DNA from: Acidimicrobiia bacterium
Lineage (GTDB): Bacteria > Actinomycetota > Acidimicrobiia > Spongiisociales > ZC4RG35
Assembly (NCBI GenBank): GCA_028284765.1
Contig: JANQRA010000003.1
Span: 144,500-208,499 of the forward strand
DNA length: 64,000 nucleotides
Direction of reading: 5' to 3'
Below, one piece after another: positions 31,592 to 59,262 of the stretch. Both the position numbers and the translations under genes were made by a program. How positions within the stretch are numbered: position 1 is the first letter of the stretch; every line of letters starts with the position of its first letter. Under the pieces are notes generated by a model. The model had not been told where the DNA came from and ran no database searches. It was given only the letters and a program-made list of their open reading frames with translations.

Positions 31592-32323
31592 ATGGCGATC
31601 TATCGTCTCGACCTTGCCTATGACGGCTCCGGGTTCCGGGGCTATGCACGTCAGGAAGGCCAGCGAACGGTTCAGGGGGAGTTGGAGCAGGCGTTAGCGA
31701 CTCTGCTCAAAGGGAGTGTCCCAACATCGGTCGCCGGTCGCACCGACGCCGGAGTCCACGCGCTCGGCCAGGTCGTGTCGTTCCCGTACGACGAGACGAT
31801 CGACGCTTTCAGATTCAAGCGGAGCCTGAACGGTCTGATCGGCCCAGAGGTTTCAGTCAGTCGTGTTTCAGAGGTGCCTGACGGCTTCAGCGCGAGGTTC
31901 TCGGCCAAATGGCGACGCTACCGCTACTTGATCGACCAATCCGAGGCGATCAACCCCCTGAGCAGGGGTTACGTGTGGCATGTCAAACAGGAGTTAGACA
32001 GCGATGCCATGGGGCAGGTCGGGGTGGGGTTCATCGGCGAGCACGACTTCACCTCCTTCTGCAAGTCGGTCGAAGGCAAGAGCAATGTCAGACGGGTGAC
32101 GGAGCTGACGCTCACGACGACGGGCCCGGAGATCGAGTTGACCATCGAGGCCAATGCCTTCTGTCATCAAATGGTGCGGTCAGTGGTCGGCTATCTGTAC
32201 GACGTGGGCCGAGGCTTCAGCAAGGCATCTGCCAGCGAAGTCATCGAAGCTCGTGATCGGGCGGCGGTTGCCACGGTTGCGCCACCTCACGGGCTGACTC
32301 TCATGGCTGTCGGATACGACTGA
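31592..32323 (+). CDS. truA: tRNA pseudouridine(38-40) synthase
   Basis: 243 aa, [14 protein letters not shown]...[15 protein letters not shown]. Confidence 0.9.
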
Positions 32324-40155: not shown

Positions 40156-41897
40156 AGATCGCCCATCTGACAACAGTGGACATGAGCCTTCGCTACCTCG
40201 TGCTGCCCCAACTGGAGGCGGCGGCGGAAGCTGGTGAGGCGATTGCCATCTCTGCTCCAGGCCCCTATGTCGCTGAGATCGAACAACGTGGCATCACTCA
40301 CTTCCCGCTCAGCCACTCGACGCGGGGGATGAACCCGCTATCCGATCTCGGAGCCGCTTATCAACTCTGGAAGATTCTGCGGCGAGAGGGCGTCGACATC
40401 CTCCACACCCACAACCCCAAACCAGGCGTATACGGACGCATAGTTGGTCGTCTGGCTGGGGTTCCGATCGTGGTGAACACTGTGCATGGTCTCTATGCGA
40501 CCGAAACCTCGTCACGCCTCAAACGTTGGATCGTGTACGGCCTCGAGTGGTTTGCGGCGAAGTTCTCAGATTCTGAACTGATCCAGAACCCCGAGGACCT
40601 CGACCTACTAGCCGGCAAAAGGATTGTCCCGAGATCAAAGCTTCGGCTCCTGGGCAACGGCGTCGATCTGACACGTTTCAGCCCGGAATCAGCCGACTCG
40701 CACCGAGATGAGACGAGACGAGAATTGGGTCTCGGCCCGGACGACATCGTGGTGGGGATGATCGGGAGATTGGTGGAGGAGAAGGGGGTGCCTGAGCTGT
40801 TGGACGCCTTTGCCAAGATGCCTGAGAACTATCGACTCGTCATTGCCGGGCCCGACGATCCCGAGAAGTCGGATGCCCTGCCGCGGGAGATGATCCGTGG
40901 CGCAGAGGAGAGGGGTGTCCAGTTTCTCGGCATGAGATCGGATGTTGAGCGCCTCTACGGAGCCTTCGACATGTTTGTCCTCCCGAGCCACCGTGAAGGC
41001 TTTCCTCGGGCTGCCATGGAAGCTGCGGCCAGCGGGCTACCACTTATCGCCACTAATATCCGCGGCTGCCGTCAGGTCGTGTCCGACGGTGTCAACGGGC
41101 GCTTGGTGCCGGTGTCTGACGCCGTGGCCTTAGAGGCCGCGATTTTGGAGCTGGGCAGCAGTGAATCCCTGCGTGCGACGATGGCCGCGAAGTCTCTTGA
41201 GATAGCCCGCTCCGACTTCGACGAGCGGGATGTGGTTCGGATCGTGATGGATACCTACGAGTCGGTGGCGAGTGACAAAGGGCTTCGATGGGCGCTTCCG
41301 GTCGGATCCAGTGATGTGTCGGTTCGCATTGCAGACGTCTCGGACGTGGCTGCGGTTGCCGAAATGCACACGAGGCTGATCAACACCGGGTTTCTAGCCA
41401 CCTTGGGGTCGGGATTCCTGAAGGTCCTATACGAAGAGCTGATCAACGACGAGGACTCGGTCGTTTATGTGGCGGTCGGTGGTGACGGACGGCTGGGTTT
41501 CATAGCCGGGACCAAGGACACCGGAGCCCTGTACAAGCGGTTCCTGCGAAGTCGGGCCTTCTCCGCCGGTCTCCGTGTGGTTCCGGCCCTTGGGAGGAGG
41601 GGAACAATCAAGCGGATTGTCGAGACGCTGCGATACGGCGATGAGGCGCCAAGGGCCAAGGCTGAGCTTCTGTCCATGGGAGTCACTCCCCAGTCACAGG
41701 GCAAAGGAGTCGGGTCGCTGCTGATCAACCAGCTTCTCCGATGGAGTGAATCTGAATCGGTCCCGACGATGAAGGTGGTAGTCGGTTCGGAAAACGACAG
41801 GGCCATCCGGCTCTACAACCGAAATGGCTTCGTCGACGGGCGAACCATTGAGGTTCACGAGGGAGATAGTTCGGAGGAGTTCATCTGGTCGGCCTAG
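40152..41897 (+). CDS. Fusion of a family 4 glycosyltransferase with a C-terminal GNAT N-acetyltransferase
   Basis: 581 aa. The first ~380 aa are GT4 (EGFPRAAMEAAASGLPLIATN). The last ~190 aa are GNAT (LLSMGVTPQSQGKGVGSLLINQLL). Confidence 0.7.
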   Translation: MKIAHLTTVDMSLRYLVLPQLEAAAEAGEAIAISAPGPYVAEIEQRGITHFPLSHSTRGMNPLSDLGAAYQLWKILRREGVDILHTHNPKPGVYGRIVGRLAGVPIVVNTVHGLYATETSSRLKRWIVYGLEWFAAKFSDSELIQNPEDLDLLAGKRIVPRSKLRLLGNGVDLTRFSPESADSHRDETRRELGLGPDDIVVGMIGRLVEEKGVPELLDAFAKMPENYRLVIAGPDDPEKSDALPREMIRGAEERGVQFLGMRSDVERLYGAFDMFVLPSHREGFPRAAMEAAASGLPLIATNIRGCRQVVSDGVNGRLVPVSDAVALEAAILELGSSESLRATMAAKSLEIARSDFDERDVVRIVMDTYESVASDKGLRWALPVGSSDVSVRIADVSDVAAVAEMHTRLINTGFLATLGSGFLKVLYEELINDEDSVVYVAVGGDGRLGFIAGTKDTGALYKRFLRSRAFSAGLRVVPALGRRGTIKRIVETLRYGDEAPRAKAELLSMGVTPQSQGKGVGSLLINQLLRWSESESVPTMKVVVGSENDRAIRLYNRNGFVDGRTIEVHEGDSSEEFIWSA

Positions 41898-41947: not shown

Positions 41948-42826
41948 GTGTTTGGCCTCAGGTCTGGATTCGTCGATGTTCCCGACGATGAGCTGAAGAC
42001 GCACAGTGGGAGACCTGTCCCCTTGGGAGGTGTCGCCGTCTATGTCGCCCTGCACTCGGGACTTGCGGTCATGGGAGAGTTCGACATCGGCTTGTTGGCC
42101 GGGTCAACAGTCGTGCTGATCTTGGGTCTCGCAGACGATCGTCTCTCCTTGTCGCCGATCATCAGGCTGGTGGTTGTATCGGGAGCCGCGCTAGCGACCG
42201 CCCTTCTCCGCCCGGACCCATCGCTGGCGGGAGCCATTGGCTTCACGGTGGCAGTGCTCATCGTCGTCAACGCCATAAACCTGTTCGACGGTCTCGATGG
42301 CTTGGTAGCGATATCCGCCACGTTGACCTCACTCGGCCTTGCTGCTGTGTTCTGGTCATGGCCTCCACTCGTGCTCGGCGCCGCTCTTCTTGGGTTCTAC
42401 CTTTGGAATCGGCCGCCAGCGAGGCTCTACCTGGGTGACAACGGTGCCTACCTGATCGGTCTCTCGCTGGTGTGGCTGGCATACGCAGGCGCGGAATCCG
42501 GATGGGAGATCCTTGTGGGCCTTGCGTTGGTAGGTGTCCCGTTGATCGACATGGCGGCGACGATTTTCCGGCGATACCGCTCCTCCGATCCACTGTTTGA
42601 AGGAGACCGCGATCACAGTTACGACCGATTGCACCAGTCGGGTCGATCGGTGGCCCAAGTCGGACTTTGGGTGGGGTTGATTCAGGCCGCCTGGGTGGTT
42701 GCAGTCTTGGGAATAGCCGCCGTATTTGCCCCTGCCGTGGCGGCTACTGGCTCTGCTGTGCTTGGTGTCGGGCTGGCAGTTCTGGTGGGTTTGCGGGGAG
42801 CTGGGTCAGAGGCGGCAGCTTCTTGA
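41948..42826 (+). CDS. WecA/TagO-like polyprenyl-phosphate HexNAc-1-phosphate transferase (initiating glycosyltransferase); the N-terminus is probably longer than called
   Basis: Conserved NAINLFDGLDGL and YLGDNGAYLIG motifs and multiple transmembrane helices. A transmembrane-like in-frame stretch AILLAAGLTALLGRALIVFG lies upstream of the first canonical start (GTG at 41948). Confidence 0.7.
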   Translation: MFGLRSGFVDVPDDELKTHSGRPVPLGGVAVYVALHSGLAVMGEFDIGLLAGSTVVLILGLADDRLSLSPIIRLVVVSGAALATALLRPDPSLAGAIGFTVAVLIVVNAINLFDGLDGLVAISATLTSLGLAAVFWSWPPLVLGAALLGFYLWNRPPARLYLGDNGAYLIGLSLVWLAYAGAESGWEILVGLALVGVPLIDMAATIFRRYRSSDPLFEGDRDHSYDRLHQSGRSVAQVGLWVGLIQAAWVVAVLGIAAVFAPAVAATGSAVLGVGLAVLVGLRGAGSEAAAS

Positions 42827-44147
42827 CCTCGTATCGGCTCGTCGAGCGTGCCTCCCAGCCAAGTCCGATGATCAGCACGAGGAAGAATGCAATCACCTGA
42901 CCACGCTGGCGGGCGATGATTCCAATGTTGCGGACGACGCTGAACGCCACGGCAAACCCGAGCAGGTAAAACGTCGAGAAGACGACGTAGGGTCGCGATC
43001 GCCAGTACTTCAGATTGCGCCAAACGGCCGGGAGCCGCCACAGAGTGAAACCTGCCAGCAAGGCTGTCTCTCCTGCTGCGAGCAGATGCTGAAGTTCGGT
43101 GGCCTCCCAGGGGAAAGGCCGGTAGAGCACGTGCGCCAACGCCATCGGGACGTCGAGTGGTGTGGTGACGACTCCTCCTGATCCGACCGAGCCTGAAGAT
43201 GTTCGCCGGACGACGTCGGCGGCGAATTCATCCACAGCCTGGCTGCTGAGAACATCGACCCCAAAGATGTCAGGGAAGACAGCCACCACGGCGGCAGAGG
43301 CGGCTAGCCCTCCTGCGAGGAGCATCAACCGTCGAAATGCCGCCCCCTGGTCGAGAGCTTTGGGCTTGGCAACCAGGGCCGTCAGCACCAGCGCACCGAC
43401 CACCAACGCGGCGATGTGGACCCGTACCAGACCGAGGGCAACCAGCGACACGCCCAGTCCTGTTAGCCAGCGGACTTCGAAGGCTTCGAGAGATCGACTG
43501 ATGAAGTAGGCCGATAGCCCAAGGGCCAGAACGACGAGAGCGTCTTTGCCGATCGACGACGGCCAGAAGGCGTAGGTCGGCAGGAGGAATATGAGGATTG
43601 CGTAGGGCTTGAGTTGATGGGGCTGTGCGTGTCGGCGGAATGCTGCGTAGAAGAGGATCTGACCGAGAAACGCCAGGATGGCGAAGAGCACGAAGCCGCC
43701 AAGAAGATCGGGTGTGATTATTGCGAAGAGACCCCCGGTGAAGGCTTCCACGACTTGGGTTCCGAAAGAACCTCTCCCGGTGAGCTCGGGGATGCTTCCG
43801 GACCGCCACTCTGAGGCAAGGTCGACACCAACGCGGTAGTACCGGAACGAGTCACCCGATCCGTACAGCACCGTGACCATGTAGTAGCGCCCAAGGACGC
43901 CTACCAACTTTGCTGCGAATCCGATTGCGATCCACTTCGGCAGCCATGCCTTGTCGTGCTCGCGTCGAATGGACCATCCGATGGCTGTCACCAGAAGCCC
44001 GCCCATTAGGGCAATGACTATCACCGCGGCGCCGGAGGCACCGACGCCGAGGAGAATCCCGAGCATGACCGTGGCGACTGCCGCAAGGGCGAGAATCGGG
44101 CCGTCAGATTTCACAGGAGCTCCAGGTCGGACATGGCGAAGTCCCAC
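42744..44147 (-). CDS. O-antigen polymerase/ligase-like (Wzy_C-type) polytopic membrane protein
   Basis: 467 aa, more than 10 transmembrane helices. No soluble catalytic motif. Sits in a Wzx/Wzy-type locus. Confidence 0.45.
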   Translation of the reverse strand: MGLRHVRPGAPVKSDGPILALAAVATVMLGILLGVGASGAAVIVIALMGGLLVTAIGWSIRREHDKAWLPKWIAIGFAAKLVGVLGRYYMVTVLYGSGDSFRYYRVGVDLASEWRSGSIPELTGRGSFGTQVVEAFTGGLFAIITPDLLGGFVLFAILAFLGQILFYAAFRRHAQPHQLKPYAILIFLLPTYAFWPSSIGKDALVVLALGLSAYFISRSLEAFEVRWLTGLGVSLVALGLVRVHIAALVVGALVLTALVAKPKALDQGAAFRRLMLLAGGLAASAAVVAVFPDIFGVDVLSSQAVDEFAADVVRRTSSGSVGSGGVVTTPLDVPMALAHVLYRPFPWEATELQHLLAAGETALLAGFTLWRLPAVWRNLKYWRSRPYVVFSTFYLLGFAVAFSVVRNIGIIARQRGQVIAFFLVLIIGLGWEARSTSRYEVKKLPPLTQLPANPPELPARHQAQQSQ

Positions 44148-47216: not shown

Positions 47217-49121
47217 TTGGGCGGCGCAAGCAATGGGGATAGTCCGAAAGCCCGTGAAATAGTTTCGGCAACGGCTTCTCGATTCAGAGCAGATATCGCG
47301 TTTGCAGTTCTCGACGTGATGATCGTCATCGCCGCCTACACGTTTGGTCTCGCGCTCCGCATGCTCGATCCGTTGGTCGACGACCAGGTGAACTTCTGGC
47401 GCAACCTCGCGATCGCTCTTCCGGTCATCGTTTTGGTTCACATCGTCGCCAACACGATTGCCGGTGCATACGGCCACGTTTGGGAGTACGCCAGCACTTC
47501 CGAGGCTGTGCGTCTGGTGTTCGCCAATGCGGCGGCAGCTGCGGTGATCCTCGGCATGGGTCTGGCTGCCCGGGAGCTTTGGGATTTCGTCATTCCGATT
47601 CTCACACTCGTTGTGGGCGCCCTTGTCTCGTTCCTGATGATGGGAATGGTCCGGTTCCGATCTCGTCTCTTCTCGTATCGCAAGCACTCGGATGGCCCGC
47701 GCTCGCTCGTCGTCGGCGTTGATGCAGATGCTGCTCGATTCGCGCGTGAGGCGCCCGAGGTCGAGGGTGGAGGTCGAGTGATCGGCTTCCTCAACGGCGA
47801 GGCCTCCAAAGGCGGTTCAGATCGGCGCATCGCCGACCTGCCTGTTCTCGGCTCCATCGACGAGGTTGCAGACATCGTCGAAGAGCACGAGATCGATCAG
47901 GTGGTCATCACCGGCAACGATTCTGACATTGTGCGGACCGTCGTGGATGCCTGTCTGGACACTGAAGTCAGGCTGCGAATTCTCCCCGGAACTCAGGATG
48001 TCGTGAGAGACCAGAGGGCCCCGGTCGATGCACGTGACATCAAGGTCGAGGACCTTCTGATTCGGACACCCGTTGAGAGCGACATGACCGCTGTCTGCGA
48101 CCTTCTGAGGGGGAAGACCGTTCTGGTCACCGGAGCTGGAGGCTCGATTGGATCTGAGGTAGTGGCCCAGGTCTTGGAGTACGAGCCGGGTGCGGTCTGG
48201 GCACTGGATCGAGACGAGACACTGCTGCACGACGCCACCGTCCGTTGGCCGGGCCCGGTGTCCGTTTATCTCGGCAACGTCCGAGACGGGGACGCGATGA
48301 TCCGTGCATTCGAGAAGATAAGGCCCGACGTAGTCTTTCACGCTGCTGCCCTCAAGCATGTGCCCATGCTGGAAGAGCATCCCGACGAAGCAGTCCTAAC
48401 CAACGTCGTAGGTACCAGGAACGTCATCGAGGCAGGGTCACGGGTGGGAGTCGAGAACTTCGTCCTGATCTCCACCGACAAGGCGGTGGACCCAACAAGT
48501 GTGATGGGTGCCAGCAAGCGGGTGGCTGAGTTGATGGTCAAGCTCGGCGACGCCCGACAAGACGGTTGCACCTACTCCGCTGTCAGGTTCGGGAATGTGC
48601 TCGGCAGCCGGGGAAGCGTCATCCCCACATTCGTATCCCAGATAAGGAAGGGTGGGCCGGTCACGGTCACCGATCCTGATATGACCCGCTATTTCATGAC
48701 TGTCGACGAAGCGGTTCAGCTCGTGTTGCAGGCGTCGGCTCTCGCCGACAAGGCCGATCTGTTCCTCCTCGATATGGGTGACCCGATCAGGATCGAAGAC
48801 CTCGCACGGCGGTTGATCCGGCTGTCGGGTCTGATCCCAGACGTCGACATCGATATCAAGTACACCGGAATCCGACCTGGGGAGAAGAGGCATGAGCAGC
48901 TTGCGAATGGACCGCTTGAGCCAACATCGAATCCCAAGATCCTCGAGGTCCCGGTCGAGCTTCCCACCGCTGGACTCCTGGCGGAGGCAATCCTGAAGCT
49001 CGAGGAGGCTGCGCTCCAAGGCCGGACTAACGATGTCGTGCGTATCCTTAATAGTCTTGCGGACGGGAGTCTCTGGGCAGACCGCCCAGCAGACGATCGA
49101 CTCAAGACTGGATCTGGATAG
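47217..49121 (+). CDS. Membrane-anchored UDP-GlcNAc 4,6-dehydratase (CapD/WbpM/PglF family)
   Basis: 634 aa. Four N-terminal transmembrane helices, then LVTGAGGSIGSEV ... FVLISTDKAVDPTSVMGASKRVAE. Confidence 0.88.
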   Translation: MGGASNGDSPKAREIVSATASRFRADIAFAVLDVMIVIAAYTFGLALRMLDPLVDDQVNFWRNLAIALPVIVLVHIVANTIAGAYGHVWEYASTSEAVRLVFANAAAAAVILGMGLAARELWDFVIPILTLVVGALVSFLMMGMVRFRSRLFSYRKHSDGPRSLVVGVDADAARFAREAPEVEGGGRVIGFLNGEASKGGSDRRIADLPVLGSIDEVADIVEEHEIDQVVITGNDSDIVRTVVDACLDTEVRLRILPGTQDVVRDQRAPVDARDIKVEDLLIRTPVESDMTAVCDLLRGKTVLVTGAGGSIGSEVVAQVLEYEPGAVWALDRDETLLHDATVRWPGPVSVYLGNVRDGDAMIRAFEKIRPDVVFHAAALKHVPMLEEHPDEAVLTNVVGTRNVIEAGSRVGVENFVLISTDKAVDPTSVMGASKRVAELMVKLGDARQDGCTYSAVRFGNVLGSRGSVIPTFVSQIRKGGPVTVTDPDMTRYFMTVDEAVQLVLQASALADKADLFLLDMGDPIRIEDLARRLIRLSGLIPDVDIDIKYTGIRPGEKRHEQLANGPLEPTSNPKILEVPVELPTAGLLAEAILKLEEAALQGRTNDVVRILNSLADGSLWADRPADDRLKTGSG

Positions 49122-51791
49122 ATGGAACTCCGACGGCTAAGCAGGGCCCTGAGCGGCCGATGGGCGACCGTGATCGCAATCGGGCTCGTTGGCGTTATTG
49201 CGGCACTCGCGTTCACATCCATATCCAACCGGACCCCTGGTGACACGGTCATTGCGACGGCCGCAATTCGGTTTGAGCCCGATGAGGGTCAGACGATCGC
49301 TGACCTCGCGCCTGAGATCGAGGCAGCTCGCGGCTTTGCGATCATCGCAGCGGAAGAACAGATCCTGGCTGATCCCGACATCGTGATCGAGGCCGATCTC
49401 GGTGGTGGCCGGCTGGTGTTCACGACCCAAGCTCCGAGTCAGGCCGAAGCGGCCCGCAAGGCCGCCGAACTAGTCGACGCCTTCAACCAGATCGATCCAA
49501 CGCTGGGTGGTCAGGTCGATGACGAGATGGAGAGCTTGCGATTGGAAGCTGCGTCGATCGCCGACCAGCTTCAGGCGCTAGAAGATCAGCTGTCACAGCC
49601 GGACCCCCAGGACGTCCTACTGGCAGAAAGGCTTGACTCACAGATCAACGGGATAAACCAGCGGTTGGGCGAACTGGACATCCTCGAAGCCGGTGCCGAC
49701 GCTGAGACCAGAGCTGCGATCATCCTCGAGCGCGCGAACCTCAACAACCTCTTGGCCGAGACGCTTGCGGAACGAGAAGCGCTTGGTGATGTCGAGCCAG
49801 CGCAGCTGTCGCCGGGAGACCTGCTGCTGCAGCAAACCCTTCAGAATCGGCTGACCAGCATCGCATCGGAATTCGAGCGCCTGTACCTGCGGCAGCAGGG
49901 TGTTGAGGGTATTGGTGTCCTCGAGCCCACAACCTTCTCCGACTTGAACTCTGCACCGGCCAACGCATGGGTGAATGCGGCCGTTGGATTCCTGGGTGGA
50001 GTCCTCATTGCCGTGTTTGCGCTCATGTTCTTGGCGAGGACACGGCGGACCGTTCTCCTTCCGGAAGACGTTGCGGTGCCGGTACTCGGCTCCATCCCGT
50101 CACGGGAGGTTGGCTTCTCGCTGCCTGACCGGTGGTACGACGAGGCCGAAGGAGGGCCACGCAAGACTGCCATCCAGGCACTGCGCTCCTCGGTCGAAGC
50201 TTTGGTCCCGATGTCCGGCGAAACGATCGCCATCTCACGTCATGCGGCGCCCGGTCGTGACGTCCAGGGCCTCGCCGTAGACCTCGCGTCCTCCCTAGCT
50301 ACGGCGGGAACCAGTGTTTTGGTGATCGATGCCGACTGGCATGTTCAATCTCAAATCGGCGCATCACGGGTGGGTGGCGAGACACTGGCCAGTGTTCTAG
50401 CTCTCGATCCGGCCGCACCGGAGTACCCGGCCCGGGTTGACCATGCGGCAGAGAGCGCACACCTGATTCGGAACGGGCTCTCGGTCCTGCCCTCGGGAAC
50501 TCCGCCCGCTTCTGCGGCAGACGCCCTGGCTGGTCGCCAGTTCCGGGCCCTCCTCTCAGCAGCCCAGGACCGTTACGACGTGGTGATTGTTGTGGTTGAT
50601 GCCATCGAGTCGCCAGCCGCCCAAGTGGCGATGCAGCGTGTGAATCACGCACTCGTCGTGGTCACGCCCGGTTCCACCACGATGCCAGACCTCAACGGCC
50701 ACCTCGAAGACCTGCACCGTCTCCGGGTGTCCGTCCTGGGTGCGGTGTTCCTCAGCAAGCACGACCGGGTCCAGTCCTTCTTCAGAAGTCGGTCTGCGGG
50801 CAAGAGCACAGAAAGCTCATCAGTAGCGGAGGCACCGTCGGCTGCCCCGCCGAAGAAGCCGAAGTCAAGTCGACGCAAGAAGGAGGAAGAAGGGCCGCCA
50901 CCTCCGTCACCCATCAGCCGCCTGCAGAACTACCCCATCCCCGATGAGCGCAGGACTGGCCTGTTGCCGCAGAACACCTTGCGTGATCTGGCTGACGAGA
51001 TCAGCCCGATGGACATGGTGGTCGACGAAGGCAGCCTGGGAGATGAGTTGCTTGCTGTGCTGTCCACGTCTGCCAATCCACAGGCCTATCCCGCAGTTGC
51101 CGAGTATCTGGTGGCTCGGATCGAAGACATGGTCACCGCCCAGCACGGTCTTGGCGACCTCTCGCCCGAATTGGTCGATCAAGTCGCAGAAGATGGATTC
51201 GTCTCGTTGCGAGCGCTGCGTGGCCACCGGACGGCAGGGTCTTGGTTGCGTCAGGAGATCGAGCGGGAGGCGGGAGAGTTCACCGCCGACAACATCATCT
51301 CGCAGATGGAGCGCATCCTGGGCGGAGGTATCGATGAAGAGGTCTCGATCGATGAGTGGCTCATAAAAGAGTTCTTCAAGAGACATCTGGCAAAGACTGA
51401 GGGTCAACCCTCGATCTGGCATCTAACAGGCCCGGGTCAAGCGGTCGACATCCTCGTTCCAGCCCGGAGGCTCAACTCCGAGCGGCTTTCTGACATCCTG
51501 CGAAACGTCGTGTCTAACGGTCGGGACGAGATGGTTCGTTTCCGACACTCGGCGATGGCTCATGGCGATCATGAGCAAGCGGGACTGTTCGACACGCGTA
51601 TTGCGGAGTTCGATCGGTTCGAGTCTGCTCTCCAGTCTGTGGCCACTGGCAAGTACGGAAAGACGGAAGCGTGGGAGCCGGACTGGACGAAAGGTACCCG
51701 CTCCAATCTCGCCGTCTTCCAAGATGCGGGCCTGATCCCGTTCCCGGTCCTGTCACAACAGGAGATGGACGCCACTTTGGTGTCTGCCTGA
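49122..51791 (+). CDS. Wzz/PCP-like chain-length determinant fused to a BY-kinase-like domain with degenerate Walker A, plus a ~330-aa C-terminal domain with no recognisable motif
   Basis: 889 aa. Transmembrane helix 1 is WATVIAIGLVGVIAALAF, followed by a coiled-coil region and transmembrane helix 2 VGFLGGVLIAVFALMFL. Then PVLGSIP...AISRHAAPGRDVQGLAVDLASSLATAGTSVLVIDAD; a CpsD/Wzc would have GEGKST here. YDVVIVVVD is Walker-B-like. There is no C-terminal Tyr cluster. Confidence 0.65.
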   Translation: MELRRLSRALSGRWATVIAIGLVGVIAALAFTSISNRTPGDTVIATAAIRFEPDEGQTIADLAPEIEAARGFAIIAAEEQILADPDIVIEADLGGGRLVFTTQAPSQAEAARKAAELVDAFNQIDPTLGGQVDDEMESLRLEAASIADQLQALEDQLSQPDPQDVLLAERLDSQINGINQRLGELDILEAGADAETRAAIILERANLNNLLAETLAEREALGDVEPAQLSPGDLLLQQTLQNRLTSIASEFERLYLRQQGVEGIGVLEPTTFSDLNSAPANAWVNAAVGFLGGVLIAVFALMFLARTRRTVLLPEDVAVPVLGSIPSREVGFSLPDRWYDEAEGGPRKTAIQALRSSVEALVPMSGETIAISRHAAPGRDVQGLAVDLASSLATAGTSVLVIDADWHVQSQIGASRVGGETLASVLALDPAAPEYPARVDHAAESAHLIRNGLSVLPSGTPPASAADALAGRQFRALLSAAQDRYDVVIVVVDAIESPAAQVAMQRVNHALVVVTPGSTTMPDLNGHLEDLHRLRVSVLGAVFLSKHDRVQSFFRSRSAGKSTESSSVAEAPSAAPPKKPKSSRRKKEEEGPPPPSPISRLQNYPIPDERRTGLLPQNTLRDLADEISPMDMVVDEGSLGDELLAVLSTSANPQAYPAVAEYLVARIEDMVTAQHGLGDLSPELVDQVAEDGFVSLRALRGHRTAGSWLRQEIEREAGEFTADNIISQMERILGGGIDEEVSIDEWLIKEFFKRHLAKTEGQPSIWHLTGPGQAVDILVPARRLNSERLSDILRNVVSNGRDEMVRFRHSAMAHGDHEQAGLFDTRIAEFDRFESALQSVATGKYGKTEAWEPDWTKGTRSNLAVFQDAGLIPFPVLSQQEMDATLVSA

Positions 51792-51795
51792 ATCG

Positions 51796-52587
51796 GTGTC
51801 GGTCGTCAGACGGCTGGCCAAGAGTGCCTTCACAGCCTCCGATCGGTTGCAGCCTGCCCCAAAAGGACCGCGGGTTCTGATATACCACCGCGTAGGCCGC
51901 TTTCTGGGCCAGCAGATGGAGGTCACCGAAGACGACTTCGCTTGGCAGTCGGATTGGCTGGCGTCCAACAGGGAAGTCGTTCCGCTCGATGAGGCTCTGA
52001 AGAGGTGGACGGACGAGGACTCCAGTGGTCTGGTTGCGATAACAATCGATGACGGATATGAGGACACATTCACCGAGGCATTTCCGATCCTCATGGAAAG
52101 GCGCCTGCCGTTCACGCTCTACGTCTCCACCGAGCACGTCGAGACCGGTGTGCCGCTGAATGCAGAGACTGGGGCGCCACCGCTGACATGGGATCAGATA
52201 CGTGAAATGCTCGATTCCGGTCTGATGACCTTGGGAGCGCACACGCACTCACATCCCGATCTCCGCAACATCGATCCCGATGACATCGAGACCGAGCTGA
52301 GAACTTCGGATGAGCTGATTGAGCAGCGCACAGGAGTCAAACCGATCCACTTTGCGTACCCGTGGGGCTACTGGTCTGGCGCAGCAGAGCAGCTGGTGGC
52401 TGAGAGGTATCAGTCGGCCGTTCTCGGATCCCCTTTCAGCGCCAAACATGAGTTTCATCCGCTACTGGTTCACCGATATCCCGTTCAATTGAGCGATGGA
52501 CGGCGGTTCTTCGAGGCGCGGCTCCGTGGTGGGATGTTGCTGGAGGAGCGGATTCGTCGCAGGCTCAGAGGCTACGAAGGGCCTTGA
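51796..52587 (+). CDS. Polysaccharide deacetylase (CE4/NodB family)
   Basis: 263 aa, TIDDGYEDTF...HTHSHPDL motifs. Confidence 0.8.
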   Translation: MSVVRRLAKSAFTASDRLQPAPKGPRVLIYHRVGRFLGQQMEVTEDDFAWQSDWLASNREVVPLDEALKRWTDEDSSGLVAITIDDGYEDTFTEAFPILMERRLPFTLYVSTEHVETGVPLNAETGAPPLTWDQIREMLDSGLMTLGAHTHSHPDLRNIDPDDIETELRTSDELIEQRTGVKPIHFAYPWGYWSGAAEQLVAERYQSAVLGSPFSAKHEFHPLLVHRYPVQLSDGRRFFEARLRGGMLLEERIRRRLRGYEGP

Positions 52588-54476: not shown

Positions 54477-55964
54477 ATGGCTGATGCGAGCCGGGACTCC
54501 CGGTCTTTTCGAACGGATGCCTTGTCCGGCGGTAGGTGGGGTGCGATCAGAAGTGTCGCTCTCCAGGTCTCGACCATCCTCACAACCGCAGTCCTGGCGA
54601 GATTGCTATCTGACACCGACTTCGGACTGGTGGCGATCACGGTGGTGGTGCTCACGATGTTCGACCTCATCACGAGGGTCGGGTTGGGTGCCTCCGTCGT
54701 CAGACGGGAACCGCTTACCAAGGAATTCTCCTCGACCTTCTTCTGGGCTTCTCTGATTCTCGGTCTGGTTGCTGGCGGCTTGGCCGCCTTGATCGCCGTT
54801 CCCGGCGCCAGGCTGGCGGGCAATGTAGACGCTGCGCCATTGGTCGTGCTGTCTGCAGCCACACTTCCCTTCAATCTCATGGCGCGAGTGCCGTCCGGCC
54901 TTCTCTCACGAGAGTTTCGCTTCCGCACCCTTGCGATGATCGATATCTCGGGTGCATTCGTCCACGGCATCGTCGCTATCTCATTGGCCTTTGCTGGATT
55001 CGGCGCATGGTCGGTCGTCATAGGCCAGGTGGTTCGAAGCCTCGTGATGCTGGTGGCGTCTGTGTTGGCGACCCGGTTCCGGCCCGACTTCACCATGAAC
55101 TTCGGCTTTCTTCGTGAGGAGTTGTCATTCAACGCCAGCTGGTTGAGCGCTGACTTGATCAGCTACGCCAACAAGAACGCTGACTACTGGTTCGTGGGTA
55201 ATCGCCTCGGTACTGGTGCCCTGGGCGTCTACTACGTGGCATATGTGATCCCGAACCTGCTGAGACGTCGCATCACGCAGGTCGGCCACGACGTGATCTA
55301 TCCAGTCGTCTCCAGAATCGCGGAGGACACGAAACGCATCCGATCTGTTTACCGCGAGGTGCTGTGCCTCGTCTCATTCCTGGCAGTACCGATGATGCTG
55401 GGTCTGGCGGCCGTTGCTGATCTGACGATTCTGATCGGCTTTGGCCCCGACTGGACCGAGGCAATCGACCCACTTCGTATCGTCGCCGTGTCCGCTGCAA
55501 TCACGGCCGTCACTGTCGTAGGGCAGCCCATCTTCGCAGCCATGGGCCATCCTCAGGTTCTGATACCCATCGGGATCATTCAGCTTGTGATCCTTGGCGT
55601 TGGTCTTTCCTTCTCGTTCAACGACGGCAGTCTGGTGGCAGTGTCCCTCGCTGTTTTGCTGGCGACCTCTGTCCGGTTTTTCCTGGTGGTGAGGAAACTC
55701 AAGCAGATGATCGGTGTGAGCTACCGAGCCTTCGTAGTGGCTGTCATGCCATACGTCGTTGCCTCGCTGATCATGGTCTCGGCAGTTTGGGCTCTCCGCT
55801 CAACGGTCTTCGAACCGCTCTCCGTGGTACCGGAGGCAATAGTCGCGGTTGGCGTCGGTGCCCTTCTTTACCTCGGTTCTGGGTTCTTGTTCTTTCGGAG
55901 GAGCTTCTCGGAGCAGATAGTTGCCGTTAGAGCCCTGCTGATTCCTAGTCGGAAGAAGGCTTGA
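54477..55964 (+). CDS. Wzx-type oligosaccharide flippase (MOP superfamily)
   Basis: 495 aa, about 12-14 transmembrane helices, typical polysaccharide-biosynthesis membrane protein pattern. Confidence 0.75.
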   Translation: MADASRDSRSFRTDALSGGRWGAIRSVALQVSTILTTAVLARLLSDTDFGLVAITVVVLTMFDLITRVGLGASVVRREPLTKEFSSTFFWASLILGLVAGGLAALIAVPGARLAGNVDAAPLVVLSAATLPFNLMARVPSGLLSREFRFRTLAMIDISGAFVHGIVAISLAFAGFGAWSVVIGQVVRSLVMLVASVLATRFRPDFTMNFGFLREELSFNASWLSADLISYANKNADYWFVGNRLGTGALGVYYVAYVIPNLLRRRITQVGHDVIYPVVSRIAEDTKRIRSVYREVLCLVSFLAVPMMLGLAAVADLTILIGFGPDWTEAIDPLRIVAVSAAITAVTVVGQPIFAAMGHPQVLIPIGIIQLVILGVGLSFSFNDGSLVAVSLAVLLATSVRFFLVVRKLKQMIGVSYRAFVVAVMPYVVASLIMVSAVWALRSTVFEPLSVVPEAIVAVGVGALLYLGSGFLFFRRSFSEQIVAVRALLIPSRKKA

Positions 55965-56862: not shown

Positions 56863-58162
56863 TATTGAAAGCCCTCCTCATGGAGTCGAGGTCGGCTCCG
56901 GTCCCGGCCTCGAAGTGTTGAGTTTGATGGCTCAAGAGCGTCCAGAGGGCACTGTTTGGTACGTCAACGTCATTGAGAGTGATGGGTTCATCCTTCGCCA
57001 GTTTCCTCGTCACCGTGACACCCGGGGCCAGCCCGATTGGCAGCCACGTCGAGTCGGAAACCTTGTCGATCTCGCCATACACGTCGTACCCGCCGATGCC
57101 ATCGATCACGGTTCCGACATCCAGGTCTCGTTTGGCCAACGACACGACCTCTGCCACCGGAGCGCCGATTGGAGCGATCGTGGGCTCGTTGTCCAGGGCG
57201 GCCTCCGCGATCGAGATGGGCGTTTCGAACTGGACGAGGTGCCATGGTCGGAAGAAGAGGTACCAAGGTCCATCGCCCATCTTCAGGTATTGGAGATAGG
57301 GGGCCGCCAACTCCTCATGCGCACCGGTCGCGATCACGAAGACTCCACTTCCGAAGTCACCGCCGAGGGTGTAGTCGACCACGCCTGTACCGGACAGGGC
57401 TGATCTGAAATCTGTCAAGGCATCGGCCATGGTGGTTTCCACGCCGTGCATGCCTCTCACTTCTGGGAGGAGGCCCGTTGCATTGGCAACAGACACGTTC
57501 TCGACGTTCATCTTCGTGCCGTCGGTAAAGGCAGTCGTCATGTGCAAGCTTGTCTTCTGCTTCTCGGCCCAGGGGCGGATGGAGTCAGGTGTGGCGTGTC
57601 TGTCGAGGAAACCCTTGCAATTGATCGCGGCAACGGTTTCCAGGCCGATTCCCTCTACGTACTCGACCAGCCTCTGCATGACACCTGGCTGATCGCCGTC
57701 ACTGCCTGTGTACACCACTCCCGATTGATCAGCGAGCACCTTGAGGATCGGTCCGACTGTGGCGTCTGTCTCGTAGTTGAGAGAGACAACATGGCATCCA
57801 GCAGCGAAAGCCTCCAGCGCTACCTTGGCCCCGAAGCTGGTGTCTCCCGTCGCCTCCACGACCACGTCGATAGAGCTCAACTCGCTGAGAATCGATGGCT
57901 CGCTGACGAGGGCGGTTTTCCCTTCGCGGACCATGTCATCCAACTGTTGGCTGCCGACTTCCTCGTCCACCGCCTCTATCCCGTTGGTCTGAAGCATCAT
58001 GTTCGCCCGCTCCGCAGACCGTGCGATCACCAGGGATGGTGTCATTCCAGGGGTCAGTTTCAACTGGTGGATGAGACCTCGAGCGACGAACCCCGAACCC
58101 ACGACAGCCACCCTGATGTGACGCCCGGACTGTTCGGCTTCTTGGAGTCTTCTGAAGATCAT
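56855..58162 (-). CDS. NAD-binding (homoserine-dehydrogenase-like Rossmann) oxidoreductase with a C-terminal SAF domain (COG4091-like)
   Basis: Internal ATG at 58162 preceded by GGAGG. N-terminal VAVVGSGFVARG. C-terminal SAF-like VVSLAKRDLDVGTVIDGIGGYDVYGEI...DEPITLNDV. The 97-aa upstream extension in the ORF track has no coding character. Confidence 0.55.
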   Translation of the reverse strand: MIFRRLQEAEQSGRHIRVAVVGSGFVARGLIHQLKLTPGMTPSLVIARSAERANMMLQTNGIEAVDEEVGSQQLDDMVREGKTALVSEPSILSELSSIDVVVEATGDTSFGAKVALEAFAAGCHVVSLNYETDATVGPILKVLADQSGVVYTGSDGDQPGVMQRLVEYVEGIGLETVAAINCKGFLDRHATPDSIRPWAEKQKTSLHMTTAFTDGTKMNVENVSVANATGLLPEVRGMHGVETTMADALTDFRSALSGTGVVDYTLGGDFGSGVFVIATGAHEELAAPYLQYLKMGDGPWYLFFRPWHLVQFETPISIAEAALDNEPTIAPIGAPVAEVVSLAKRDLDVGTVIDGIGGYDVYGEIDKVSDSTWLPIGLAPGVTVTRKLAKDEPITLNDVDVPNSALWTLLSHQTQHFEAGTGADLDSMRRAFNSA

Positions 58163-58185
58163 CGGGTGTAGCCTCCACGAACGTT

Positions 58186-59262
58186 TTGAAAGCCGTAATT
58201 CTCGCCGGGGGTCAGGGCACACGACTCCGCCCGCTGACCTATTCCGTTCCGAAGCAGTTGGTTCCGATTGCCGGGCGTCCTGTGCTGGCCCATATCGTTG
58301 CCAACCTCGAAGAGTGTGGAGTCGAGGACATCGCGATCGTGACCAGTCCCGAGGCCGAGGCTGCCGTTCGGCAGATGATCTCGGACGAGGGTCTTGAGCG
58401 GCTGGGCATCGAGGTCTTGATACAGAACTCGCCTGACGGCCTTGCGGCTGCATACGAAGTGGCGCTCGATTGGGTTGCGGACGAGCCGTGTGTGCTCTAC
58501 CTGGGCGACTGTCTCCTCACAGGCGGCATAGGTCATGTGATTTCCGAACATGTCGCTGGCGATTTCGACGCAACGATACTCGTGGCCGAAGTCGACGATC
58601 CCAGCAGATACGGCATCGTCGAGGTGGCGGATTCCGGGCTGATCGAGCGACTCGTCGAGAAGCCCACGGAGCCCAAGAGCAACTTGGCGATTGTGGGCGT
58701 GTATGTGTTCGGTTCGGGGACCTCCGATATCGTCCGAGCGGTCGAGCCCGGCTTCCGCGGCGAGCGGGAGATCACGGATGCGCTTCAGGCCATTGTCGAC
58801 GGTGGCGGTCGGGTCGCTGAGAGCAGATTGGCCGGCTGGTGGATCGACACGGGAACCCCGCCGGACGTGCTCAACGCCCAGGCTCTGCTGCTCGAAGGTC
58901 TGGAGACATCTCAGGACGGCACGCTCGAAGGCAGCGATGTGACGGGCTCGGTGTTCGTTGCGGAAGGCGCATCGGTCGAAGGCGCAGTGCTCGTGGGACC
59001 CGTGGTCCTTGCGGAAGGCGCCGTTGTCAGAGGCGGGACGGTCGGCCCCAACGTCTCCGTTGGACGTGGCTGTGTTGTCGAATCGTCGACCATCCACAAC
59101 TCGATCGTCATGAGCGGCAGCATCGTGTCGACCTCCCATCTCTCGGATTCGATCGTTGGCCCTGATAGCGAGATAAGAGGGGTTCAGGGTCAGCCGGACG
59201 TTCGGCTGATCGTTGGGGCCGAGTCGGCGATTGTCTCAGGGGAATCCAGCCACTCGGGGTGA
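58186..59262 (+). CDS. Sugar-1-phosphate nucleotidyltransferase (RmlA-like long form with a C-terminal left-handed beta-helix)
   Basis: MKAVILAGGQGTRLRPLTYSVPKQLVPIAGRPVL, then C-terminal hexapeptide repeats. Confidence 0.8.
   Translation: MKAVILAGGQGTRLRPLTYSVPKQLVPIAGRPVLAHIVANLEECGVEDIAIVTSPEAEAAVRQMISDEGLERLGIEVLIQNSPDGLAAAYEVALDWVADEPCVLYLGDCLLTGGIGHVISEHVAGDFDATILVAEVDDPSRYGIVEVADSGLIERLVEKPTEPKSNLAIVGVYVFGSGTSDIVRAVEPGFRGEREITDALQAIVDGGGRVAESRLAGWWIDTGTPPDVLNAQALLLEGLETSQDGTLEGSDVTGSVFVAEGASVEGAVLVGPVVLAEGAVVRGGTVGPNVSVGRGCVVESSTIHNSIVMSGSIVSTSHLSDSIVGPDSEIRGVQGQPDVRLIVGAESAIVSGESSHSG

What the first reader, a model, noticed from the sequence alone, without database searches (positions are those of the whole stretch)
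49122..51791. Wzz-like copolymerase fused to a BY-kinase-like pseudo-ATPase and an unrecognisable 330-aa C-terminal domain
Seen in sequence. The N-terminal two-thirds reproduces PCP2a/Wzc topology: transmembrane helix, long helical periplasmic region, second transmembrane helix, then a CpsD/CapB-like cytoplasmic domain with motifs in the right order (PVLGSIP, Walker-B-like YDVVIVVVD, GLSVLPSG). Where every BY-kinase has the Walker A motif G-E-G-K-S-T, this protein reads A-P-G-R-D-V-Q. The catalytic lysine is replaced by aspartate, and the usual C-terminal tyrosine cluster is absent. Instead a Lys/Pro-rich linker (PPKKPKSSRRKKEEEGPPPPSP) leads into about 300 residues (LVARIEDMVTAQHGLGDLSPELVDQ ... 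SQQEMDATLVSA) with no motif I can assign. A catalytically dead kinase module kept as a scaffold and wired to a new output domain would be a new regulatory layer for chain-length control or export.
Basis: partly seen in the sequence, partly recalled or inferred. Interest (0 to 1): 0.72.

Follow-up and report, generated by a model that had tools for sequence, protein, structure and literature searches.

The report
Dead-kinase co-polymerase carrying a BREX-methylase tail
This gene encodes a membrane protein that helps build a cell-surface polysaccharide; its kinase part has lost all catalytic motifs, and its "unrecognisable" tail is a copy of the poorly understood end-piece of a phage-defence DNA methylase (BREX PglX), a module previously reported only in BREX systems.

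Summary
The 889-aa ORF (49122-51791, +) is real and conserved. At least 65 full-length homologs exist, all apparently from uncultured Acidimicrobiia.

Residues 1-547 have a Wzc/PCP-2a architecture. The BY-kinase-fold domain lacks the Walker A Lys/Ser, the Walker B Asp and a Tyr tail in every member. It is therefore a BY-pseudokinase, a concept already published (EcpK/EpsV, HfsB/HfsA).

A sister clade in the same CapD-PCP-deacetylase operon has the same dead kinase but no tail.

Best reading: a phosphorylation-independent co-polymerase whose captured PglX module acts as a protein-binding adaptor. That function is inferred, not shown. I rate it a new variant of a known kind, of moderate interest.

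The parts
49122..51791 (+). Whole gene: 889-aa PCP-2a-like protein with a BY-pseudokinase domain and a PglX-CTD-like tail
   Evidence: ORF. Identical protein P0001 and 28 full-length homologs. Family alignment A1.
49161..49226 (+). Transmembrane helix 1 (aa 14-35)
   Evidence: Helix 14-35 in the AF2 model. Hydropathy peak at 16-34.
49227..49964 (+). Extracytoplasmic PCP-type domain (aa 36-281): alpha/beta base plus four long helices
   Evidence: Secondary structure. Full-length Wzc chains are the best Foldseek hits, with ~700 aligned columns. No Pfam Wzz hit.
49965..50042 (+). Transmembrane helix 2 (aa 282-307), preceded by the PCP Pro/Gly motif (P279, G289, G293)
   Evidence: hhalign to the canonical PCP-2a P0033 covers residues 259-548 (probability 97.6%).
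50073..50762 (+). Cytoplasmic BY-kinase-fold domain (aa 318-547), catalytically degenerate (pseudokinase)
   Evidence: NCBIfam EpsG/eps_fam hits at E ~1e-11, far below the cut-offs. PDB sequence hits to Etk, BceF, CapAB and Wzc. Foldseek TM 0.7-0.8 to CapAB, Wzc and Etk kinase domains.
50241..50270 (+). Degenerate P-loop (aa 374-383, HAAPGRDVQG); V381 occupies the Walker A Lys position and Q382 the Ser/Thr position
   Evidence: Alignments to Etk, BceF and CapB. 0 of 65 family members have GK[ST] here.
50574..50600 (+). Degenerate Walker B region (aa 485-493, YDVVIVVVD); the canonical Asp position is hydrophobic
   Evidence: compare P0032/P0033, which read VVIVDTPP / VVLVDAPP.
50763..50906 (+). 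Disordered tether of variable sequence (aa 548-595; Lys/Pro-rich in this protein only)
   Evidence: pLDDT below 50 for residues 548-592. Columns are variable in A1.
50907..50951 (+). Conserved short linear motif S-P-x-x-R-L-x-x-Y-P-x-P (aa 596-610)
   Evidence: S596, P597, R600 and L601 are invariant; Y604 and P607 are at least 90% conserved. The motif is absent from PglX and from the CTD-less sister clade.
50970..51788 (+). PglX/BrxX C-terminal-domain-like module (aa 617-889): helical part, winged-helix-like core (W746..F751 F752..H755..P763..W766), two long helices, and a PDW..G.R.NL..Q..GL tail
47217..49121 (+). Upstream operon partner: membrane-anchored UDP-GlcNAc 4,6-dehydratase-like protein (CapD/PglF type); its TAG stop abuts the ATG of the target gene
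   Evidence: Pfam Polysacc_synt_2 at 1e-101. NCBIfam PseB/FnlA-like. The TAGATG junction. Present immediately upstream in every locus with flank.
51796..52587 (+). Downstream operon partner: NodB-type polysaccharide deacetylase, starting 4 nt after the target's stop
   Evidence: Pfam Polysacc_deac_1. Conserved 4-70 nt downstream in all loci with flank.
42744..44147 (-). Conserved multi-TM protein (467 aa, at least 6 TM segments, no family hit); candidate Wzy-type polymerase (inference only)
   Evidence: No Pfam or NCBIfam hit. Hydropathy. Syntenic in most loci.
54477..55964 (+). Wzx-type flippase
   Evidence: Pfam Polysacc_synt_3 at 7e-68. Not conserved within 6 kb in other loci.

Best explanation
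The gene encodes a phosphorylation-independent polysaccharide co-polymerase of the PCP-2a (Wzc-like) type. It belongs to a conserved amino-sugar polysaccharide cluster of Acidimicrobiia.

Shown: two TM helices flank a helical extracytoplasmic domain. A cytoplasmic BY-kinase-fold domain follows, and it has lost the Walker A Lys/Ser, the Walker B Asp and the Tyr-rich tail in every family member. In one clade, a 50-75-residue disordered tether carries a conserved S-P-x-x-R-L-x-x-Y-P-x-P motif and leads into a ~270-aa module. That module is homologous to the winged-helix plus coiled-coil C-terminal region of BREX-1 PglX/BrxX. It keeps the fold core (F693, H755, P763, W766, G858, N862). It has lost the BrxX metal ligands and the conserved DNA-contact lysines, and it has become acidic.

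Inferred: the dead kinase domain forms the cytoplasmic ring or scaffold of a Wzc-like oligomer, as proposed for EcpK and HfsB. The tethered PglX-derived module, no longer suited to DNA binding, acts as a protein-binding adaptor. It would dock onto a neighbouring protomer or a cytoplasmic partner, and so take over the regulatory place that the phosphorylatable Tyr tail has in canonical Wzc. Because an orthologous clade lacks the module, it modulates the machine rather than being required for it.
For: Architecture.

BY-kinase-fold homology with dead motifs.

No other BY-kinase-like ORF in the window, and no phosphatase family among the scanned neighbours.

Published pseudokinase-scaffold precedent: PMC12004946.

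Functional shift in the module: D997 is acidic in 9 of 10 PglX homologs and in 0 of 12 family members. Y1113 is Tyr in 9 of 10 against 0 of 12. K1076 is Lys in 10 of 10 against 1 of 12 basic. K1077 becomes an invariant Gly. The shared core has net charge -6 to -17 in the family against -5 to +7 in PglX.

Operon and clade comparison.
Against: No experiment exists for any member, and all members come from uncultured MAGs.

Oligomerisation is inferred from homology only. The EX2RX2R ring-contact motif is only partly kept (T349..Q352..R355).

The full-length model gives no confident placement of the tail relative to the pseudokinase (pTM 0.37), and the conserved linker motif has low pLDDT.

The module is described as winged-helix-like (PMC12839542), and it keeps R754, H755 and a basic residue at position 758 on the helix equivalent to the DNA-facing one. 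Nucleic-acid binding is therefore not excluded.

No binding partner has been identified.

The Wzy assignment of the multi-TM neighbour is unsupported by any family model. The Wzx gene is not conserved near other family members.
Confidence: 0.55

Rival explanations
1. The PglX-derived winged-helix module still binds nucleic acid. The protein would then be a membrane-tethered DNA- or RNA-binding factor that couples envelope polysaccharide assembly to gene regulation, to the nucleoid, or to incoming phage DNA.
For: The homologous BrxX region contacts DNA non-specifically and is needed for defence (PMC11842806, PMC11341690). [quoted passage not shown] R754, H755 and a basic residue at 758 are conserved on the corresponding helix.
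Against: K1076 is Lys in 10 of 10 PglX homologs but is replaced by E/D/N/Q/S/G in 11 of 12 family members. K1077 becomes an invariant Gly. The R1145 and K1152 equivalents are not basic. The whole shared core is acidic, with pI 4.7-5.9 and net charge -6 to -17. No DNA-related genes are in the conserved neighbourhood.
Confidence: 0.15
2. The tail is mainly a structural or stability element, for example shielding or stabilising the dead kinase ring, with no specific ligand. It is a neutral capture that became fixed in one clade.
For: The orthologous sister clade in the same operon lacks it altogether. No partner gene co-varies visibly with its presence in the neighbourhoods examined.
Against: There is strong purifying selection. 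About 30 columns are invariant and mean column identity is 50% over sequences that are only 36-45% identical overall. A separately conserved linear motif lies in an otherwise variable disordered tether. That pattern is typical of a binding function.
Confidence: 0.15
3. The kinase-fold domain is still an active ATPase or kinase that uses a non-canonical nucleotide-binding loop.
For: The overall fold is preserved, as is the Walker A' region (D403-A404-D/N405). P0002 has a Lys two positions upstream (SGKDVQ).
Against: The P-loop segment varies in sequence across the family, with no conserved Lys/Arg or Ser/Thr. The canonical Walker B Asp position is hydrophobic in all 65 members. There is no Tyr tail. 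The sister clade has even lost DAD, which reads DTR.
Confidence: 0.04
4. The fusion is an artefact, caused by a frameshift, a mis-assembly or a read-through of two genes.
For: One apparent 'short' homolog (P0030) is followed by a separate ORF that encodes the tail.
Against: That contig is riddled with frameshifts in many genes, and the next ORF is the tail (E = 2e-66). The single-ORF architecture recurs in at least 65 independent assemblies from different samples and sources.
Confidence: 0.01

Closest known systems
Wzc / PCP-2a polysaccharide co-polymerases (E. coli Wzc, PDB 7NHR; Etk; BceF)
   Same: The order of parts on one polypeptide is the same: TMH, helical extracytoplasmic domain, Pro/Gly motif plus TMH, then a cytoplasmic BY-kinase-fold domain. 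Both sit in a polysaccharide gene cluster. Wzc chains are the best structural match to the full-length model.
   Different: There is no Walker A Lys/Ser, no Walker B Asp, no C-terminal Tyr cluster and no nearby phosphatase. The extracytoplasmic domain is shorter (~245 aa), and no OPX/Wza partner was seen. An extra ~340 aa follow the kinase fold (tether, motif and PglX-like module).
BY-pseudokinases acting with PCP-2 proteins: EcpK/EpsV (Myxococcus xanthus) and HfsB/HfsA (Caulobacter crescentus) (PMC12004946)
   Same: The BY-kinase fold lacks catalytic residues and the Tyr tail. The proposed role is a phosphorylation-independent scaffold for the co-polymerase.
   Different: Those are stand-alone cytoplasmic proteins that bind a separate PCP. 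Here the pseudokinase is fused to the PCP (PCP-2a style) and carries an additional large C-terminal module. The taxon is different (Actinomycetota, class Acidimicrobiia). Function here is inferred, not tested.
C-terminal region of BREX type-1 methyltransferase PglX/BrxX (PDB 8C45, 8Q56, 9EWZ, 8ZEK)
   Different: It is not attached to a methyltransferase or TRD and is not in a BREX operon. The metal ligands (D997, D999, Y1113 equivalents) and the conserved basic DNA-contact loop (K1076/K1077) are lost. The charge is acidic. Family-specific motifs are gained (Y[LV]V.R.EDM, WL..E). Sequence identity is about 15%.
CTD-less Acidimicrobiia sister clade (P0031, P0191-P0214; 547-623 aa)
   Same: It occupies the same CapD-PCP-deacetylase operon and divergent GT/GNAT/multi-TM block. 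The PCP topology is the same and so is the degenerate P-loop (for example AAPGRDV in P0031).
   Different: It ends about 40 residues after the kinase fold, in a basic tail with a conserved ARHLGG end. It has no SPxxRL motif and no PglX-like module. Walker A' reads DTR instead of DAD. Its clusters carry sulfotransferases and an ABC-2 transporter.

Membership tests
PCP-2a (Wzc-like polysaccharide co-polymerase) | Two transmembrane helices flanking a largely alpha-helical extracytoplasmic domain | tested here: met
   The AF2 model has TMH 14-35 and TMH 282-307 with long helices at 132-258. Hydropathy agrees. Full-length Wzc chains are the best Foldseek hits.
PCP-2a (Wzc-like polysaccharide co-polymerase) | Pro/Gly-rich motif at the start of TMH2 | tested here: met
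   P279, G289 and G293 are conserved. The region aligns to the SPK...G...G region of the canonical P0033 by hhalign, probability 97.6%.
PCP-2a (Wzc-like polysaccharide co-polymerase) | Cytoplasmic BY-kinase-fold domain fused C-terminal to TMH2 | tested here: met
PCP-2a (Wzc-like polysaccharide co-polymerase) | Sequence match to the Pfam Wzz (PF02706) or GNVR (PF13807) models | tested here: not met
   No hit at E <= 1. The extracytoplasmic domain is recognised only by fold.
PCP-2a (Wzc-like polysaccharide co-polymerase) | Encoded in a Wzx/Wzy-type polysaccharide cluster | tested here: inconclusive
   In the window, a Wzx flippase, a PGT (Glycos_transf_4), several GTs and sugar-modifying enzymes surround the gene. 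The candidate Wzy has no family hit. Wzx is not conserved near other members.
Active BY-kinase | Walker A GxxGxGK[ST] | tested here: not met
   V381 and Q382 occupy the Lys and Ser/Thr positions. 0 of 65 members have GK[ST].
Active BY-kinase | Walker B hhhhD | tested here: not met
   The canonical Asp position is V/A/G/S/M in all members.
Active BY-kinase | Walker A' (DxD) | tested here: inconclusive
   D403 and A404 are invariant, and position 405 is D or N. The sister clade reads DTR.
Active BY-kinase | C-terminal tyrosine cluster | tested here: not met
   0-2 Tyr in the 52-74-residue linker and 0-1 in the last 25 residues, against 6 in the control P0033.
Active BY-kinase | EX2RX2R oligomerisation motif | tested here: inconclusive
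   It aligns as T349-x2-Q352-x2-R355. Q352 and R355 are invariant, but the Glu and the first Arg are lost.
Active BY-kinase | ATP binding and autophosphorylation | not testable with these tools
   This needs a biochemical assay.
BY-pseudokinase / phosphorylation-independent PCP-2 (EcpK-EpsV, HfsB-HfsA type) | BY-kinase fold lacking catalytic residues and the Tyr tail | tested here: met
   The family definition is taken from PMC12004946.
BY-pseudokinase / phosphorylation-independent PCP-2 (EcpK-EpsV, HfsB-HfsA type) | Physical association with a PCP-2 protein | tested here: met
   They are covalently fused in one ORF. In the described systems the association is non-covalent.
BY-pseudokinase / phosphorylation-independent PCP-2 (EcpK-EpsV, HfsB-HfsA type) | Required for polysaccharide synthesis without kinase activity | not testable with these tools
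   This needs genetics and biochemistry. All members are from uncultured MAGs.
PglX/BrxX C-terminal module (BREX type 1) | Fold: helical part, three-stranded sheet (wHTH-like), two long helices | tested here: met
PglX/BrxX C-terminal module (BREX type 1) | Conserved sequence core (DG[IF]..L; FF..H; P..W; G.[RK].N) | tested here: met
   Multiple alignment with 10 PglX homologs and BrxX. Profile hits at E down to 1e-26.
PglX/BrxX C-terminal module (BREX type 1) | Metal-binding site (BrxX D997, D999, D1012, Y1113) | tested here: not met
   The equivalents are A689, D691, R703 and V796 by the programmatic mapping. Across the family, the D997 position is acidic in 0 of 12 and the Y1113 position is Tyr in 0 of 12. 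In PglX homologs both figures are 9 of 10.
PglX/BrxX C-terminal module (BREX type 1) | Basic DNA-contact residues (K1076/K1077, R1145, K1152) | tested here: not met
   The equivalents are E760, G761 (invariant Gly), H817 and T825. Net charge is acidic.
PglX/BrxX C-terminal module (BREX type 1) | Attached to an N6-adenine methyltransferase plus TRD within a BREX operon | tested here: not met
   No MTase domain is present. No BREX genes occur in the window or in 25 related loci.

The most novel reading that the evidence does not exclude
The captured PglX module still does what it does in BREX: it senses or holds nucleic acid, or engages a BREX-like P-loop partner. In that case an envelope-polysaccharide assembly machine in Acidimicrobiia would be directly wired to phage or foreign-DNA sensing. 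This would be a physical link between capsule production and a BREX-derived defence component.
Probability: 0.07. Interest if true: 0.85.

Novelty: new variant of a known kind. Interest (0 to 1): 0.55.

Why it matters
Two fields meet here.

For polysaccharide assembly, this is a class-wide, naturally fused PCP-2a pseudokinase. It extends the recently proposed phosphorylation-independent PCP-2 subfamily to Actinomycetota. It also comes as a natural pair: orthologous clades with and without an extra output module. That pair allows a direct test of what replaces tyrosine phosphorylation as the regulatory input.

For BREX, the C-terminal region of PglX/BrxX has no assigned function and was reported to have no homologs outside type I BREX (PMC11842806). 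Finding it in an unrelated membrane machine, with the fold core kept but the metal and DNA-contact residues stripped, separates what is structurally essential from what is BREX-specific. It also gives an independent context for working out what the module binds.

Tried and rejected
- **Pfam and PDB sequence searches on the tail.** A Pfam scan of the tail in all 18 aligned members gave only chance-level hits. A family profile against PDB sequences gave only GyrB at E = 0.27. Direct sequence methods do not reach PglX; fold search and an intermediate sequence were needed.

- **Other fusion partners for the module.** The 300-720-aa representatives carrying the module have no Pfam hits. On inspection they are PglX fragments or variants, or short contig-end ORFs. 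I found no third architecture. P0156 (520 aa) has an unexplained N-terminal region that I did not follow up.

- **P0030 as a natural tail-less member.** Rejected. Its contig has many frameshifts, and the tail is the next ORF.

- **A second, active BY-kinase in the window.** None found.

- **Taxonomy of the closest PglX donors.** No names or accessions are held for them.

- **AFDB fold search for further architectures.** The library was not available.

- **Literature.** No paper in the searchable library mentions Wzc together with PglX. A broader term set gave nothing relevant. The Wozniak 2023 paper on PglX C-terminal mutations is not held.

- **Wzy assignment.** The conserved multi-TM neighbours have no NCBIfam or Pfam hit.

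- **Docking of the linker motif or tail on the pseudokinase.** The monomer model gives no confident inter-domain geometry (pTM 0.37).
Full report
**1.
The window contains one uninterrupted ORF at 49122-51791 on the + strand, encoding 889 aa. G+C content is flat across the region at 0.59-0.62.

A database search returned the identical protein plus 27 further full-length homologs. They are 868-916 aa long and 36-73% identical, and most come from metagenome-assembled Acidimicrobiia. A scan of one genome per GTDB species found 23 loci. All are Acidimicrobiia-type MAGs, although a few carry an 'Acidobacteriota' label from the submitter. An exhaustive profile search found 52 representatives (50%-identity clusters) with the same architecture.

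The three-part architecture is therefore a conserved gene product. It is not a frameshift, a read-through or a sequencing error at 50200-50260.

**2. N-terminal two-thirds: a Wzc-like co-polymerase with a dead kinase.**
The AlphaFold2 model of the whole protein has mean pLDDT 79.6. Its pTM of 0.37 is expected for domains joined by a floppy linker. The model shows:
- TMH1 at residues 14-35
- an alpha/beta base and four long helices at 43-258
- TMH2 at 282-307
- a Rossmann-like domain at 321-545

Its best PDB matches are the complete Wzc cryo-EM chains (7NHR_A, E = 2e-18, ~700 aligned columns). The isolated kinase domains of CapAB, Wzc, Etk and BceF follow, with TM 0.7-0.8. A profile-profile comparison with a canonical PCP-2a (P0033) aligns residues 259-548 at 97.6% probability, including the Pro/Gly motif at TMH2.

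Sequence models see the kinase fold only weakly. NCBIfam EpsG and eps_fam score E ~1e-11, far below their cut-offs. Pfam AAA_31 is sub-threshold, and there is no Wzz hit.

HMMER alignments to Etk, BceF and CapB agree on the register. The Walker A Lys pairs with V381 and the Ser/Thr with Q382; D380 pairs with the last Gly.

In an alignment of 65 full-length members, none has GK[ST] at this position, and the segment itself varies in sequence. The canonical Walker B Asp position is hydrophobic in all of them. Controls in the same alignments show canonical motifs: EGKSS, VDAPP and a GYGYGYGYGYGSKYG tail in P0033, and DKST and VDTPP in P0032. The family has no Tyr cluster.

The window holds no second BY-kinase-like ORF. 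None of the neighbours I scanned is a phosphatase.

This is a BY-pseudokinase fused to its PCP.

**3. The pseudokinase idea is already published.**
Blocher et al. 2025 (PMC12004946) characterise EcpK of Myxococcus xanthus as a BY pseudokinase that binds the PCP EpsV and acts as a scaffold. They point to HfsB/HfsA of Caulobacter and to earlier sequence surveys that listed non-canonical PCP-2a proteins without catalytic residues. [quoted passage not shown] This part of the finding is a new member of a known kind. Its fused form and its taxon are new.

**4. The 'unrecognisable' tail is a PglX/BrxX C-terminal module.**
I modelled the last 298 residues with an 18-sequence alignment and obtained a confident model (pLDDT 81.6, pTM 0.79). 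It is mostly helical, with a small beta-sheet and two long helices.

- Foldseek finds six hits with E < 1e-3. All are BrxX/PglX chains with TMq 0.47-0.57. The seventh hit is at E = 0.07.
- The family profile of the tail found 508 proteins at E <= 1e-3 in 1.84 billion representatives.
- Beyond the PCP family, the listed hits are the extreme C-termini of 1,100-1,700-aa Eco57I/MmeI-type methyltransferases. These pass NCBIfam's cut-off for BREX-1 PglX.
- The shorter hits are PglX fragments.
- A PglX-homolog C-terminus bridges to the solved E. coli BrxX and Salmonella PglX at E = 5e-7 to 3e-11.

A multiple alignment shows shared motifs throughout: DG(I/F)xxL; W/Y...FF..H......P..W; and PD...G.(R/K).N...Q..GL.

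**5. What is known about that module.**
- Went et al. [quoted passage not shown] They show that charged residues there bind DNA and the phage inhibitor Ocr (PMC11341690).
- Drobiazko et al. 2025 describe the BrxX CTD as a helical part, a three-stranded sheet and a two-helix bundle. It has a metal site formed by D997, D999, D1012, Y1113 and the I1001 carbonyl. DNA contacts come from R1145 and K1152, and K1076E/K1077E abolishes defence.
- Drobiazko et al. also state that they found no structural homologs outside type I BREX, and suggest the domain serves interactions within BREX complexes (PMC11842806).
- A 2026 comparative study calls the region a three-stranded wHTH plus a coiled-coil-like extension (PMC12839542).
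- I found no paper that links Wzc-type proteins and PglX.

**6. The module has changed function here.**
I obtained a BrxX-identical pglX from a Klebsiella plasmid and mapped residues onto 12 family members and 10 PglX homologs.

| BrxX residue | Role | PglX homologs | This family | P0001 equivalent |
|---|---|---|---|---|
| D997 | metal ligand | acidic in 9 of 10 | acidic in 0 of 12 | A689 |
| D999 | metal ligand | Asp in 10 of 10 | Asp in 3 of 12 | D691 |
| Y1113 | metal ligand | Tyr in 9 of 10 | Tyr in 0 of 12 | V796 |
| K1076 | DNA contact | Lys in 10 of 10 | basic in 1 of 12 | E760 |
| K1077 | DNA contact | basic in 5 of 10 | invariant Gly | G761 |
| R1145 / K1152 | DNA contact | variable | not basic in 23 of 24 family cells | H817 / T825 |

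The fold core is invariant in both groups: F/I693, H755, P763, W766, G858 and N862.

The shared ~200-residue core carries a net charge of -6 to -17 (pI 4.7-5.9) in the family. In PglX homologs the range is -5 to +7.

The family has also gained motifs of its own, Y[LV]V.R.EDM and WL..E. In the otherwise variable, disordered tether it has an invariant S-P-x-x-R-L-x-x-Y-P-x-P motif.

**7. Genomic context.**
The gene is the middle of a three-gene unit. The stop codon of a membrane-anchored UDP-GlcNAc 4,6-dehydratase-like gene (CapD/PglF type) abuts its ATG, reading TAGATG. A NodB-type deacetylase starts 4 nt after its stop. In 25 related loci, every one with enough flank has the same two neighbours on the same strand. 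Most also have a divergent block of epimerase, GT4, GNAT and an unannotated multi-TM protein.

Elsewhere in the window cluster there are a Wzx flippase, a phosphoglycosyltransferase, several GTs, an AsnB-like amidotransferase, UDP-glucose dehydrogenase and further sugar-modifying enzymes. The cluster follows glmM-glmS in a housekeeping region. No BREX gene is near any member.

**8. A natural control.**
A sister clade of about 25 proteins (547-623 aa, also Acidimicrobiia) lies in the same orthologous locus. It has the same degenerate P-loop, for example AAPGRDV in P0031, and no Tyr tail. It ends about 40 residues after the kinase fold, with no SPxxRL motif and no PglX-like module.

The kinase was therefore already dead in the common ancestor of both clades, or died in parallel. 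The PglX module is a clade-specific accessory. An apparent tail-less member of the long clade (P0030) is an artefact of a frameshift-ridden contig.

**9. Most likely mechanism.**
*Shown:* the architecture, the homologies, the loss of catalytic motifs, the loss of BrxX functional residues, and operon conservation.

*Inferred:* the protein oligomerises like Wzc. Its dead kinase domains form a cytoplasmic scaffold ring, as proposed for EcpK and HfsB. The tethered, acidified PglX-derived module, together with the conserved linear motif, is a protein-binding adaptor. It would dock on a neighbouring protomer or a cytoplasmic partner and tune assembly or activity, filling the regulatory role of the missing Tyr tail.

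I give the overall picture 0.55. The architectural part is near certain; the adaptor role is perhaps 0.4.

*Rivals:* residual nucleic-acid binding by the wHTH (0.15); a mainly structural, ligand-less domain (0.15); a cryptically active kinase (0.04); an artefact (0.01).

**10. Verdict.**
The dead-kinase scaffold is plausible but already a published concept. The tail is not an orphan: it is a repurposed BREX PglX C-terminal module, and finding it outside BREX appears to be new.

This is a new variant of a known kind. It is of moderate interest to both the polysaccharide-export and BREX fields, mainly because the with-tail and without-tail clades and the stripped functional residues make the module's function testable.

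Noticed in passing
window 1-36700: The polysaccharide cluster (about 36.7-63 kb) lies directly after a housekeeping stretch: fusA 225-2336, tuf 2357-3547, secY 13007-14320, truA 31592-32323, glmM 33281-34627 and glmS 34861-36687. In L002 the cluster is followed by alr, tsaE, tsaB, rimI and tsaD. A core-genome position like this suggests a conserved envelope glycopolymer rather than a mobile capsule island.
   Followed up: partly
window 24233-27598 (+): A 1121-aa ORF with Chlamydia polymorphic-membrane-protein (Chlam_PMP) repeats, probably a large surface or adhesin-like protein.
   Followed up: no
window 40152-41897 (+): A 581-aa fusion of a GT4 glycosyltransferase with a C-terminal GNAT acetyltransferase. 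The same fusion is conserved in the related clusters L001 and L029.
   Followed up: no
window 29679-31025 (-): A 448-aa fusion of an alpha/beta-hydrolase domain with an adenylate/guanylate cyclase catalytic domain.
   Followed up: no
window 42744-44147 (-), 36731-38185 (+), 58159-59139 (-): Three cluster ORFs have no Pfam or NCBIfam hit. Two are multi-TM (467 aa with at least 6 TM segments; 484 aa with at least 8). The 467-aa one is syntenic across the family and is the obvious Wzy-polymerase candidate, but nothing confirms that.
   Followed up: partly
L028 385-2118; L029 9852-11678; L030 2710-4443 (proteins P0031, P0191-P0214): The CTD-less sister clade of the co-polymerase ends in a basic Ser/Arg/Lys-rich tail with a conserved ARHLGG C-terminus. 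Walker A' reads DTR instead of DAD. Its clusters carry sulfotransferases and an ABC-2 transporter that are absent from the window.
   Followed up: partly
L027 (JGI 3300076001 contig Ga0645781_05329): This contig is riddled with frameshifts: the epimerase, the deacetylase, an ABC transporter and the co-polymerase are each split into pieces. The 583-aa 'short homolog' P0030 is an artefact of this.
   Followed up: yes
L009, L010, L013, L017, L020, L022, L023: Seven GTDB representative loci with this Acidimicrobiia-type locus are titled 'uncultured Acidobacteriota bacterium', probably a submitter mislabel. One MAG (MFD02242.bin.2.214) carries two copies of the gene on different contigs (L009 and L023).
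   Followed up: no
window 51796-52587 (+): Among its weak NCBIfam hits, the downstream NodB-type deacetylase matches HfsH (E = 1.5e-6, far below the cut-off). HfsH is the holdfast oligosaccharide deacetylase of Caulobacter, whose pathway also uses a PCP plus BY-pseudokinase pair (HfsA/HfsB). This may be no more than general NodB similarity.
   Followed up: no
protein P0102 (1728 aa) and P0156 (520 aa): P0102 is a PglX homolog with an extra N-terminal AAA_16 ATPase-like region. P0156 starts with Met and has about 300 unexplained N-terminal residues before a PglX-type C-terminal module. Either could be a further architecture carrying this module.
   Followed up: no
window 54477-55964 (+) versus L001-L026: The Wzx flippase of the window has no detectable homolog within the 6-10 kb flanks of the other family loci. 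L001 has an ABC exporter there instead. The export route may differ between members.
   Followed up: partly
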